A DNA stretch of 64,000 nt from Escherichia coli (lineage in GTDB: Bacteria; Pseudomonadota; Gammaproteobacteria; Enterobacterales; Enterobacteriaceae): assembly GCF_017348835.2 (NCBI RefSeq), contig NZ_CP071375.1. One strand, written 5' to 3'. The position numbers are program-made. This document shows, piece after piece, positions 55,501-58,500 of this stretch (position 1 is the first letter of the stretch; the number at the start of each line of letters is the position of its first letter).

Positions 55501-58500
55501 CAGAGCACGGTGGCTGGAAGGCGTTTCTGTGGACACCGCCTTATGCCTAGCGGCAGATAAAGGTGACCTGTGCCGCCTGGTCATCACGGGTTCGCATGCT
55601 GCGGGTTGAATTCAGCGCGGAGTTTAAGCAGGTGGTGAACTGATGCAGGATATTCACGAAGAAAGTCTGAACGAGTCGGTTAAATCAGAGCAGTCACCGC
55701 GGGTGGTACTCTGGGAAATCGACCTGACGGTACAGGGTGGTGAGCGGTATTTTTTCTGCAATGAGCTGAATGAAAAAGGGGAGGCGGTTACCTGGCAGGG
55801 GCGGCAATATCAGGCATACCCGATTGACGGCAGTGGCTTTGAGATGAACGGGAAGGGCAGCAGTGCCCGCCCGTCGCTGACGGTGTCCAATCTGTTTGGT
55901 CTGGTCACCGGGATGGCGGAGGACCTGCAGAGCCTGGTGGGGGCCACGGTGGTCCGCCGCCGGGTGTATGCCCGTTTTCTGGATGCGGTGAATTTTGTGG
56001 CGGGCAATCCGGAAGCGGACCCGGAGCAGGAGCTGAGCGACCGCTGGGTGGTGGAGCAGATGTCAGAGCTGACGGCCATGACAGCCTCGTTTGTGCTGGC
56101 AACACCGACGGAGACGGACGGGGCGCTGTTTCCTGGTCGCATCATGCTGGCGAACACCTGTATGTGGGATTACCGGGGAGATGAATGCGGGTATAACGGT
56201 CCTGCGGTGGCGGATGAGTTCGACAACCCCACCACCGATATCCGTAAGGACAGATGCAGCAAGTGCATGCGCGGGTGTGAGATGCGCGGCATGGTGGCTA
56301 ATTTTGGCGGTTTCCTTTCCATTAACAAACTTTCGCAGTAAATCCAATGACACAGACAGAATCAGTGATTCTGGCACACACCCGGCGGTGTGTGCCTGCG
56401 GAGTCGTGCGGCTTCGTGGTGAGAACGCCGGAGGGGGAGCGGTATCTGCCGTGTGTGAATATCTCTGCAGAGCCGGAGGCGTATTTTCGTATTGCACCGG
56501 AAGACTGGCTGCGGGCAGAGATGCAGGGGGAGATTGTGGCACTGGTCCACAGTCATCCCGGTGGTCTGCCCTGGCTGAGCGAGGCCGACCGGCGGCTGCA
56601 GATAAAAAGTGCACTGTCCTGGTGGCTGGTCTGCCGGGGGGACATTCATAAATTCCGCTGTGTGCCACATCTGACAGGACGGCGCTTTGAGCACGGGGTG
56701 ACGGACTGTTACACGCTGTTCCGGGATGCATACCATCTGGCGGGAATTGATATGCCGGATTTTGAGCGTGAGGATGACTGGTGGCGCAACGGTCAGAACC
56801 TTTACCTGGACAATATGGAGGCCACTGGTTTTTACCGGGTGCCCCTGTCCTCGGCACAGGCAGGCGATATCCTGCTGTGCTGCTTTGGCGCATCGGTACC
56901 CAACCATGCTGCCATTTACTGCGGCAACGGTGAACTGCTTCACCATCTGCCTGAACAACTGAGTAAACGGGAGAGGTATTCCGAAAAATGGCAACGACGA
57001 ACGCATTCTGTCTGGCGTCACCGCCACTGGTCCGCATCTGCCTTCACGGGGATTTACAACGATTTGGTCGCCGCATCAGCCTGAATGTGAACACGGCAGC
57101 GGAAGCCATCCGGGCGCTGTCGTTACAGGTGCCCGGATTCCGCCGTCAGATGAACGAAGGCTGGTACCAGATACGTATTGCCGGTGATGACACGGCACCG
57201 GAGGCGGTGTACGCCCGTCTTCACGAACAGCTGGGTGAGGGAACGGTCATCCACATTGTGCCGCGACTGGCCGGGGCCGGAAAGGGTGGACTGCAGATTG
57301 TGCTGGGGGCGGCAGCCATCGTGGGCTCTTTCTTCACTGCCGGCGCAACGATGGCGTTATGGGGTTCAGCCCTGGCAGCCGGTGGTTTTTCTGCCACCAC
57401 GATGCTGTTTTCACTTGGAGCCAGCATGATACTGGGTGGTGTGGCCCAGATGCTGGCCCCGAAGGCAAAAACACCGGATTACCGCGCAACGGATAACGGC
57501 AGACAGAACACGTACTTTTCGTCACTGGACAACATGATTGCCCAGGGTAACCCGATGCCGGTGCCTTACGGGGAAATGCTGGTTGGCTCCCGCCGTATAT
57601 CCCAGGACATCAGTACCCGTGATGAAGGCGGTGACGGGAAGGTGGTGGTTATCGGGCGGCAGGCATAAAAGCGAAAAAATCCCGCAGTGCTCACGGACAG
57701 GAACTGCGGGAGCGTTACGAAGATTGAGTGTAAGGAATTATTCTTATGTCACGACAAAAACATTAACTCAGAGAGGGAGGATGTGCCGTTCTTTTCAGGG
57801 AGAAAGGATTTATCGTCCTGAGGAATAAAGGTAAGGGGCCCGCCCCTTACCTGACTGATTATTGAATGATGCCGCAGGCCATTCTCGCACCACCACCGCC
57901 CAGGGGCTCCGGATGGTCATGATGGTTATCACCGCCAGCATGAAGCATGAGAGAACGCCCTTTAATCTCTTTTAATGAGTTCAGTCTCGGGGCCAGGACC
58001 GGGTAGTTCGCTTTTCCGTCATGCGTCACGAACAGCGCAGGGAGGTCGCCCAGGTGTCCATCCGGAGACCAGGGGCCAAGATGTTTGCCGGTGTTTTTCG
58101 GGTCAAAGTGACCGCCAGCCGATAATGCTGCGACCGGTTTTCCGTCTTTCAGTGCCGGGGCGCAATTTCCTTTTTCGTGCACATGAAAACCATGAATGCC
58201 TTCAGACAGAGAGTGAAGGGCTGGTGTGAACAGCAGACCGTAGGGGGTCTCCTGAATGGTTATTTTTCCAATGCTGACTTCTTTTCCGTCAGCACTGACA
58301 AGGTTCATTGGGACTTCCTGTTCTGCTGCGTATCCGCATGATGCTGCTGTCAGCATGGCAATGGCAGCAATGATTTTACATTTCATAAAACCCTCATTAA
58401 TTCCGTTAACAGACTGAGCTTGCTGGTTACAGGGTAACAAACAGCGTTCTGATGATATCGCGCAATAGCTGTGCAATATCCTATCACTGCGATTAATAAT

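What the first reader, a model, noticed from the sequence alone, without database searches (positions are those of the whole stretch)
57826..58386. Cu,Zn superoxide dismutase gene inside the tail gene cluster
A complete periplasmic SodC gene with signal peptide and metal-binding histidine motifs lies on the opposite strand between tail genes I and J, with a hairpin downstream. This is a classic lysogenic-conversion cargo position; the gene is independently transcribed and probably expressed in the lysogen.
Basis: partly seen in the sequence, partly recalled or inferred. Interest (0 to 1): 0.4.

Follow-up and report, generated by a model that had tools for sequence, protein, structure and literature searches.

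The report
Known prophage Cu,Zn superoxide dismutase gene
This is the prophage-borne copper-zinc superoxide dismutase gene (sodC-F1 allele) already described in E. coli O157:H7, sitting backwards between tail genes I and J; it is real and intact, but ordinary.

Summary
Window 57859..58386 (- strand) is an intact 175-aa ORF with a Shine-Dalgarno sequence, an export signal and every Cu/Zn ligand. It matches Pfam Sod_Cu (E 3.9e-32) and solved bacterial SodC structures (E down to 8.8e-63). It lies antisense between lambda-type tail genes I (56988..57668) and J (58520..61996). A 10-bp G+C-rich hairpin with a U-rich tail follows it at 57852..57829.

The gene is not new. The coding sequence is at least 99% identical in 541 RefSeq records, from 540 of 5,426 complete E. 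coli genomes, and is annotated sodC. It carries the sodC-F1 allele (nt 335 = T, Leu112). It also matches exactly the F1-specific and promoter primers of D'Orazio et al. 2008 (PMC2569942).

That paper showed, for this gene in O157:H7 lysogens:
- expression in log and stationary phase;
- independence from RpoS;
- a dimeric, very stable and highly active enzyme;
- partition between periplasm and membrane through an AASC lipobox.

Small additions:
- Salmonella phage Fels-1 carries sodCIII in the same I-J slot.
- A second - strand terminator abuts gene I, in sequence shared with sodC-less phages.
- No strong sigma-70 consensus was found upstream.

Verdict: already known, low interest.

The parts
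57859..58386 (-). sodC (sodC-F1 allele) coding sequence, 175 codons plus TAA
   Evidence: ORF and translation. Pfam Sod_Cu E 3.9e-32. PDB SodC matches down to 8.8e-63. At least 99% identical in 541 RefSeq records, where it is annotated sodC. nt 335 = T, giving Leu112, the F1 allele.
58327..58386 (-). Export signal, residues 1-20 ([20 protein letters not shown]). Signal peptidase I site between A20 and A21.
   Evidence: Hydrophobic core at residues 3-13, with K2/K4 as n-region. The cleavage site agrees with the LipoP analysis published for SodC-F.
58336..58347 (-). Lipobox AASC (residues 14-17), an alternative signal peptidase II site leaving lipidated Cys17
   Evidence: Matches the relaxed PROSITE-type lipobox pattern but not the strict L-[AS]-[GA]-C pattern. 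Partial membrane association is published for this leader.
58391..58395 (-). Shine-Dalgarno sequence GAGGG, 4 nt upstream of the ATG
   Evidence: Read directly from the sequence.
58387..58685 (-). The 299-bp fragment used as the sodC-F promoter in published lacZ fusions. Its first 133 bp (58387..58519) are the sodC-J gap; the rest is antisense to the 5' end of J.
   Evidence: Primers PromEDLFor and PromEDLRev match exactly at 58668..58685 and 58385..58403. The gap has 39.8% G+C. Only weak promoter candidates were found: TTGGTA-16-TGaTAGGAT at 58505..58478 and TGgTATTAT ending at 58496.
57829..57852 (-). Intrinsic-terminator-like hairpin starting 6 nt after the sodC stop codon
   Evidence: 10-bp stem, 6 G-C pairs, tail TTATTCCT. 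dG -17.9 kcal/mol, z -2.8.
57674..57711 (-). Second - strand intrinsic terminator (9-bp stem UCCCGCAGU/ACUGCGGGA, then U6), 5 nt from the stop codon of gene I
   Evidence: Fold gives -17.3 kcal/mol; partial hits in the terminator scan. It lies in the 107 bp (57669..57775) shared with sodC-less phages.
57776..58517 (.). Variable cargo cassette of the I-J gap (about 740 bp), replaced by about 90 unrelated bp in sodC-less phage JLK-2012
   Evidence: Pairwise alignment A1. G+C 50.5% against 58-60% in I and J. GC3 0.51 against 0.65 in I and 0.72 in J.
56988..57668 (+). Tail assembly gene I (left neighbour)
   Evidence: Pfam Lambda_tail_I, E 2.4e-16.
58520..61996 (+). Tail tip / host-specificity gene J (right neighbour)
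   Evidence: Seven GpJ-type Pfam domains.

Best explanation
The feature is a self-contained cargo gene (a 'moron') of a lambdoid E. coli prophage. It is the sodC-F1 allele of the bacteriophage-associated Cu,Zn superoxide dismutase. It is transcribed from the - strand, against the late tail operon, from its own promoter in or near the 133-bp sodC-J gap. Transcription ends at one or two intrinsic terminators before gene I. The 175-aa precursor is exported by the Sec pathway. Signal peptidase I can cut it after residue 20, giving a soluble periplasmic enzyme. Alternatively it is lipidated at Cys17 and cut by signal peptidase II, giving a membrane-anchored enzyme. The mature dimer converts superoxide that reaches the cell envelope into O2 and H2O2, which raises the lysogen's resistance to exogenous oxidative stress. 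Shown here: the gene's anatomy, position, integrity, identity to the published gene and distribution. Shown in the literature for this gene: expression in lysogens, RpoS independence, the dimeric state, activity, stability and partial lipid anchoring. Inferred: the exact promoter, and any contribution to virulence or fitness.
For: Integrity and family: the ORF is intact with a Shine-Dalgarno sequence and matches Pfam and PDB strongly. All Cu ligands (H68, H70, H93, H149) and Zn ligands (H93, H102, H111, D114), plus R168 and C75/C171, are conserved against E. coli SodC, SodCI, SodCIII and human SOD1.

Identity to the published gene: the coding sequence is at least 99% identical in 541 of 542 matching RefSeq records, from 540 of 5,426 genomes. 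The published primers match exactly, namely the deletion, FLAG-tagging, F1-specific (240ATG-F1, 550F1b) and promoter primers, and nt 335 = T. The published descriptors also fit: 155-aa mature protein, cleavage between residues 20 and 21, AASC lipobox, and about 61% identity to chromosomal SodC.

Cargo architecture: the gene is antisense and has lower G+C than its neighbours. It has its own terminators. It is absent from otherwise homologous I-J gaps. Analogous sodC genes sit in Fels-1 and Gifsy-2 tail clusters.

Experiments: PMC2569942.
Against: No sigma-70 promoter reaching 9 of 12 consensus matches was found upstream; only 8 of 12 candidates were found, two of them with an extended -10 TG. 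The published experiments used O157:H7 strains, not the strain of this window. The closest complete genome is the pig isolate PE164. One downstream F1 primer, 500STOP1R, has 3 mismatches in gene I. A role in virulence has not been demonstrated even for O157:H7; only H2O2 survival in vitro has been shown.
Confidence: 0.95

Rival explanations
1. The gene is carried but silent in this particular prophage. It would be a hitch-hiking remnant with no role, intact only because the prophage was acquired recently.
For: No strong promoter consensus was found. Related copies of this prophage type carry frameshifted structural genes in some strains.
Against: The gene and both flanks (57669..58700) are 100% identical to both PE164 copies and 99.7% identical to an O157:H7 copy. 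The identical promoter region drives expression in O157:H7. The gene is at least 99% conserved in 541 records and occurs in up to 4 copies per genome, which argues for purifying selection or very frequent transfer of an intact unit.
Confidence: 0.03
2. The gene mainly serves the phage during lytic growth, for example by protecting the induced cell from oxidative stress until lysis, rather than serving the lysogen.
For: Stx-type lambdoid prophages are induced by oxidative or SOS stress (general knowledge). The gene lies within the late region.
Against: It is on the strand opposite to the late operon, so late antiterminated transcription yields antisense RNA, not mRNA. The protein accumulates in uninduced cultures.
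Confidence: 0.04
3. The protein is a SOD-like fold without dismutase activity, acting as a metal-binding or structural protein like B. subtilis YojM.
For: SOD-like proteins lacking activity exist: 1xtm/1xtl YojM appear among the weak PDB matches. The protein has an unusual His-rich stretch, NHHDH, at residues 153-157.
Against: All ligands, the catalytic Arg and the disulfide cysteines are present. The purified F1 enzyme has 19,380 U/mg.
Confidence: 0.01

Closest known systems
SodC-F1 / SodC-F2 of E. coli O157:H7 lambdoid prophages (named CP-933R and CP-933V in EDL933; Sp10 is named for Sakai); D'Orazio et al. 2008, PMC2569942
   Same: The protein is the same: the gene is 100% identical to sodC in O157:H7 strains, with the F1 allele Leu112, the AASC lipobox, a 155-aa mature form, and exact matches to the published primers. 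The prophage type and orientation are the same.
   Different: Nothing in the gene differs. The host strain and prophage backbone differ slightly: the closest genome is pig isolate PE164 at 99.6-99.9%, and one primer site in gene I has 3 mismatches.
SodCIII (STM0924) of Salmonella phage Fels-1
   Same: Same slot and orientation: antisense between I and J of a lambda-like tail cluster. All ligands are conserved.
   Different: Only 60% amino-acid identity. It has an ordinary leader without a cysteine lipobox. The upstream DNA is unrelated. Only 53 bp separate it from gene I, and the shared second terminator region is absent.
SodCI of Salmonella phage Gifsy-2
   Same: It is a prophage-borne, antisense cargo gene in the tail cluster. 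Per the literature cited in PMC2569942 it encodes a dimeric, stable enzyme with a similar expression pattern.
   Different: 58.8% identity. It lies in a different slot, between a lom-like gene and L rather than between I and J.
Chromosomal SodC of E. coli (b1646; PDB 1eso)
   Same: Same family, fold, ligands and compartment.
   Different: 60% identity. Per PMC2569942 it is monomeric, RpoS-dependent, fully soluble, less active and less stable. It has no lipobox.
Haemophilus ducreyi SodC (PDB 1z9n/1z9p)
   Same: Best-scoring solved structure, E 8.8e-63; it shares the 'WS.D.H' and 'DNHSDHP'-like segments.
   Different: It is a chromosomal gene of another genus. Its N-terminal extension is not present here.

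Membership tests
Cu,Zn superoxide dismutase (Pfam PF00080; bacterial SodC) | Sod_Cu domain above the curated threshold | tested here: met
   111.9 bits against a cut-off of 28.9; covers profile positions 3-133 of 133.
Cu,Zn superoxide dismutase (Pfam PF00080; bacterial SodC) | Four copper ligands (human SOD1 H46, H48, H63, H120) | tested here: met
   H68, H70, H93 and H149 are invariant in alignment A2.
Cu,Zn superoxide dismutase (Pfam PF00080; bacterial SodC) | Zinc ligands (H63, H71, H80, D83) | tested here: met
   H93, H102, H111 and D114 are invariant.
Cu,Zn superoxide dismutase (Pfam PF00080; bacterial SodC) | Catalytic Arg143 and the intrasubunit disulfide cysteines | tested here: met
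   R168 and C171 are invariant. C75 is conserved in all four bacterial sequences; its alignment to human C57 is ambiguous in the loop.
Cu,Zn superoxide dismutase (Pfam PF00080; bacterial SodC) | Superoxide dismutase activity | not testable with these tools
   Published for the identical F1 protein: 19,380 U/mg (PMC2569942).
Bacterial periplasmic SodC | N-terminal Sec-type export signal | tested here: met
   K2/K4 n-region, hydrophobic core at residues 3-13, and GYA|A site. Agrees with the published LipoP analysis.
EHEC prophage SodC-F1/F2 | Sequence identity, including the allele-defining nt 335 (T = Leu = F1; C = Pro = F2) | tested here: met
   nt 335 = T, codon CTG, Leu112. F1-specific primers 240ATG-F1 and 550F1b match exactly, while the F2 primers have 4 or more mismatches or no match. 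The gene is 100% identical to sodC of O157:H7 strains.
EHEC prophage SodC-F1/F2 | Lipobox AASC allowing signal peptidase II processing | tested here: met
   Residues 14-17 are AASC, and the relaxed lipobox pattern matches at residues 7-17. Lipidation itself is not testable here; it is published.
EHEC prophage SodC-F1/F2 | Dimeric quaternary structure | not testable with these tools
   Published gel filtration gives about 30.6 kDa. No structure prediction was run.
Phage 'moron' (autonomous cargo transcription unit between conserved phage genes) | Absent from the same junction in related phages whose flanking genes are conserved | tested here: met
   JLK-2012 and the 33 Stx1a/Stx2c phages (34 records) match only window 57700..57774. 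In JLK-2012 the I-J gap is 240 bp and lacks sodC.
Phage 'moron' (autonomous cargo transcription unit between conserved phage genes) | Own terminator | tested here: met
   Two - strand hairpins with U tracts, at 57852..57829 and 57711..57674. These are sequence-level evidence only.
Phage 'moron' (autonomous cargo transcription unit between conserved phage genes) | Own promoter | tested here: inconclusive
   The standard scan found no site; only 8 of 12 candidates were found. The published 299-bp fragment was used for lacZ fusions, and the tagged protein is made in lysogens.
Phage 'moron' (autonomous cargo transcription unit between conserved phage genes) | Base composition different from neighbouring phage genes | tested here: met
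   Cassette G+C is 0.505 against 0.596 in I and 0.578 in J. GC3 is 0.51 against 0.65 and 0.72.

The most novel reading that the evidence does not exclude
The I-J gap of this lambdoid tail module may be a long-standing, reusable cargo slot rather than a one-off insertion site. It holds sodC in both E. coli phages and Salmonella Fels-1, with SodC (60%) diverged about as much as I (69%) and J (62%). It also keeps a - strand terminator abutting gene I even in phages whose slot is empty. That terminator could insulate the tail operon from antisense cargo transcription and would make the slot permissive for new cargo. Under this reading sodC was acquired before the Salmonella and E. coli phage lineages split, and sodC-less phages are secondary losses.
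Probability: 0.25. Interest if true: 0.25.

Novelty: already known. Interest (0 to 1): 0.08.

Why it matters
It matters little beyond correct annotation. Prophage sodC is an established example of lysogenic-conversion cargo in EHEC/STEC and Salmonella, and it may aid survival under host-derived oxidative stress. This window adds one more copy of an almost invariant gene. The one useful reminder for annotation is that the product is a dual-route protein (soluble periplasmic and lipoprotein), not simply 'periplasmic'. The shared antisense terminator and the Fels-1 synteny are minor points for those studying how morons are organised in tail clusters.

Tried and rejected
- The sigma-70 consensus scan of 57400..58900 found no site. 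A relaxed scan gave only 8 of 12 candidates, so no promoter is claimed.
- I aligned the sodC upstream region with those of Fels-1 sodCIII and Gifsy-2 sodCI. Nothing is convincingly conserved. A patchy resemblance of about 65% to the Gifsy-2 upstream over about 48 nt (my by-eye count from the alignment) was judged too weak to infer shared, for example PhoP, regulation. A by-eye look for a PhoP box was unconvincing.
- I tried to use percent identity to decide which SodC is the closest relative. SodCIII (60.5%), chromosomal SodC (60%) and SodCI (58.8%) are indistinguishable, so no origin is claimed.
- I tried to locate the exact source of the window. The left 24 kb is 100% identical to PE164 at 3.08-3.10 Mb, but the right part matches both PE164 sodC prophages at only 99.6-99.9%. 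The source is a close relative or a recombinant, and I did not pursue it.
- I did not run the large protein-database searches, structure prediction or fold search. Sequence matches to solved SodC structures and to annotated genomes already settle the family.
- The pseudogene and SOD-like non-enzyme readings were rejected on ligand conservation and published activity.

Full report
**Observation.** The - strand between 58386 and 57859 carries an ATG-initiated ORF of 175 codons ending in TAA. A GAGGG Shine-Dalgarno sequence lies 4 nt upstream. The mechanical ORF list extends the frame to a GTG at 58893. That extension runs antisense through the start of gene J and is not needed. The product matches Pfam PF00080 (Sod_Cu) over the whole domain, with 111.9 bits against a cut-off of 28.9 and E 3.9e-32. 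It also matches solved bacterial Cu,Zn superoxide dismutases: Haemophilus ducreyi 1z9n at 8.8e-63, Yersinia 2wwn, Salmonella SodCI 1eqw/6d52 and E. coli 1eso.

The neighbours on the + strand are lambda-type tail genes:
- L at 55643..56341;
- K at 56347..57084 (JAB and NlpC/P60 domains);
- I at 56988..57668 (PF06805);
- J at 58520..61996 (seven GpJ domains);
- Lom at 62063..62662.

Six nucleotides after the stop codon, the - strand forms a 10-bp hairpin with 6 G-C pairs at 57852..57829, followed by TTATTCCT. Its dG is -17.9 kcal/mol, z = -2.8 against shuffles.

**Catalytic and export features.** I aligned the product with E. coli K-12 SodC, Gifsy-2 SodCI, Fels-1 SodCIII and human SOD1. The following are all conserved:
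- the copper ligands H68, H70, H93 and H149;
- the zinc ligands H93, H102, H111 and D114;
- the catalytic arginine R168;
- the disulfide cysteines C75 and C171.

The N-terminus, [23 protein letters not shown], has a basic n-region, a hydrophobic core and a GYA|A signal peptidase I site. It also contains AASC at residues 14-17, which fits a relaxed lipobox pattern but not the strict one.

**Identity with a known gene.** The 525-nt coding sequence is found in 540 of 5,426 complete E. coli genomes, at 715 places and up to 4 per genome. In 541 of 542 matching records it is at least 99% identical, and it is annotated sodC. Many of these genomes are O157:H7, O145, O111, O103, O121 and O26-type strains. 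Two Stx2a-converting phages carry it at 100% identity in the same place.

D'Orazio et al. 2008 (PMC2569942) described two prophage copies in O157:H7, sodC-F1 and sodC-F2. They differ only at nt 335: T gives Leu in F1 and C gives Pro in F2. The window has T, codon CTG, Leu112. It matches the following published primers exactly:
- the deletion primers;
- the FLAG-tagging primers;
- the cloning primers;
- the F1-specific primers 240ATG-F1 and 550F1b;
- the promoter primers.

The F2-specific primers do not match. One downstream F1 primer, located in gene I, has 3 mismatches.

The paper's other descriptors also fit:
- a mature protein of 155 aa after cleavage between residues 20 and 21;
- removal of 16 residues at the AASC lipobox;
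- about 61% identity to the chromosomal enzyme, against 60% measured here.

The segment 57669..58700, which covers the gene, both gaps and the published promoter fragment, is 100% identical to both sodC prophages of pig isolate PE164. It is 99.7% identical to an O157:H7 copy.

**Mechanism.** The published experiments on this gene show the following:
- Chromosomally FLAG-tagged SodC-F accumulates in uninduced lysogens in both log and stationary phase, and also anaerobically.
- A 299-bp upstream fragment, equal to window 58387..58685, was used in lacZ fusions. Expression did not depend on RpoS, unlike chromosomal sodC.
- Deletion lowers survival in 250 uM H2O2.
- The enzyme is a dimer, about three times more active than monomeric SodC (19,380 against 6,290 U/mg). 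It resists proteinase K and EDTA and melts at 78-87 deg C.
- It partitions between the soluble periplasmic fraction and the membrane fraction, which is attributed to alternative processing by signal peptidases I and II.

From this and the anatomy, the best explanation is an autonomous, lysogen-expressed cargo gene. Its product detoxifies superoxide at the cell envelope. I could not map the promoter in silico. The standard scan found no site, and a relaxed scan gave only 8 of 12 candidates in the A+T-rich gap (39.8% G+C). Two of these carry an extended -10 TG: TTGGTA-16-TGaTAGGAT at 58505..58478 and TGgTATTAT ending at 58496. They are leads, not findings.

**Cargo architecture.** The record matches outside the two sodC-bearing Stx2a phages are JLK-2012, 33 Stx1a/Stx2c-converting phages and one further Escherichia record. 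They cover only the first 75 bases of an 821-base query starting at window 57700. A pairwise alignment with JLK-2012 shows near-identity from the end of I to about 57775. About 740 bp unique to the window follow, against about 90 unrelated bp in JLK-2012. Homology resumes at the J start codon.

The cassette has 50.5% G+C and GC3 of 0.51. Genes I and J have 58-60% G+C and GC3 of 0.65 and 0.72. This is the classical moron pattern.

The shared 107 bp next to I contain a second - strand intrinsic terminator. It has a 9-bp stem followed by U6, at 57711..57674, with dG -17.3 kcal/mol, and ends 5 nt from the I stop codon. sodC transcripts therefore meet two terminators before they could run antisense into I. 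The second terminator is also present where the slot holds no gene.

**Comparison with Salmonella phages.** A tblastn search of the phage collection finds SodC homologues in only nine records. They include Fels-1 (60.5%), Gifsy-2 (58.8%) and records labelled Acinetobacter and Acetobacter phage. In Fels-1, sodCIII (STM0924) lies antisense between I and J, the same slot as here. In Gifsy-2, sodCI lies antisense between a lom-like gene and L.

Between the window and Fels-1, I is 69% identical, J 62% and SodC 60%. This is compatible with old residence of sodC in the slot. It does not prove it, because all enterobacterial SodCs compared are about 60% identical to this one. The upstream regions are not alignable.

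**Novelty and score.** The gene, its position, its expression in lysogens, its biochemistry and its unusual leader were all published in 2008, and RefSeq annotates it routinely. It is already known, so interest is low. The slot and terminator observation is the only element I did not find described in the papers I read. It is modest.

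Noticed in passing
window 57674..57711 (- strand), within 57669..57775: A second, classical intrinsic terminator for the - strand (9-bp stem, U6) lies 5 nt from the stop codon of tail gene I. It sits in 107 bp that are also present in sodC-less phages (JLK-2012 and 33 Stx1a/Stx2c phages). It may insulate the tail operon from antisense cargo transcription, or it may be a remnant of a lost cassette.
   Followed up: partly
L007 (Fels-1) 4995..5519 versus window 57859..58386: Fels-1 sodCIII occupies the same antisense I-J slot. I, J and SodC are 69%, 62% and 60% identical to the window's proteins. Gifsy-2 sodCI uses a different slot, between a lom-like gene and L.
   Followed up: partly
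window 58420..58432 (- strand), upstream of sodC: A perfect small palindrome, GTTAC-CCT-GTAAC, lies about 35-45 nt upstream of the sodC ATG. It could be a regulator site or chance. It was seen by eye and not tested.
   Followed up: no
window 57922..57936 (- strand); residues 151-155 of the protein: A His-rich stretch, NHHDH, lies in the loop just after the last Cu ligand. The chromosomal enzyme has NMSDQ there and H. ducreyi has NHSDH. It may be relevant to metal acquisition; not examined.
   Followed up: no
window 35490..36006: A tRNA cluster (Met/CAT, Arg/TCG, Arg/TCT) is followed by an STnc100 sRNA match at 138 bits. By correspondence with the PE164 annotation, it lies downstream of the Q antiterminator region.
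   Followed up: no
window 18058..18109 (-), 29489..29655 (+), 20160..20276 (-), 28368..28484 (+): Rfam matches in the early region of the prophage: DicF antisense RNA, sok antitoxin RNA (hok/sok), and two ALIL frameshift pseudoknots. The pseudoknots mark two IS3-family insertion sequences.
   Followed up: no
window 62063..62662 (+) and 62727..64000 (+): An Ail/Lom outer-membrane protein gene (Pfam E 5e-121) is another cargo gene just after J. The tail-fibre gene that follows has an Ala/Ser/Glu-rich segment and then a long collagen-like Gly-X-Y run.
   Followed up: partly
L004 and L009 (E. coli PE164, 1.92 Mb and 3.04 Mb): The closest complete genome carries two near-identical sodC-bearing prophages. 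The window's left 24 kb is 100% identical to one locus, but its right part matches both at only 99.6-99.9%. The window therefore comes from a close relative or a recombinant. Across the collection there are up to 4 sodC-F copies per genome.
   Followed up: partly
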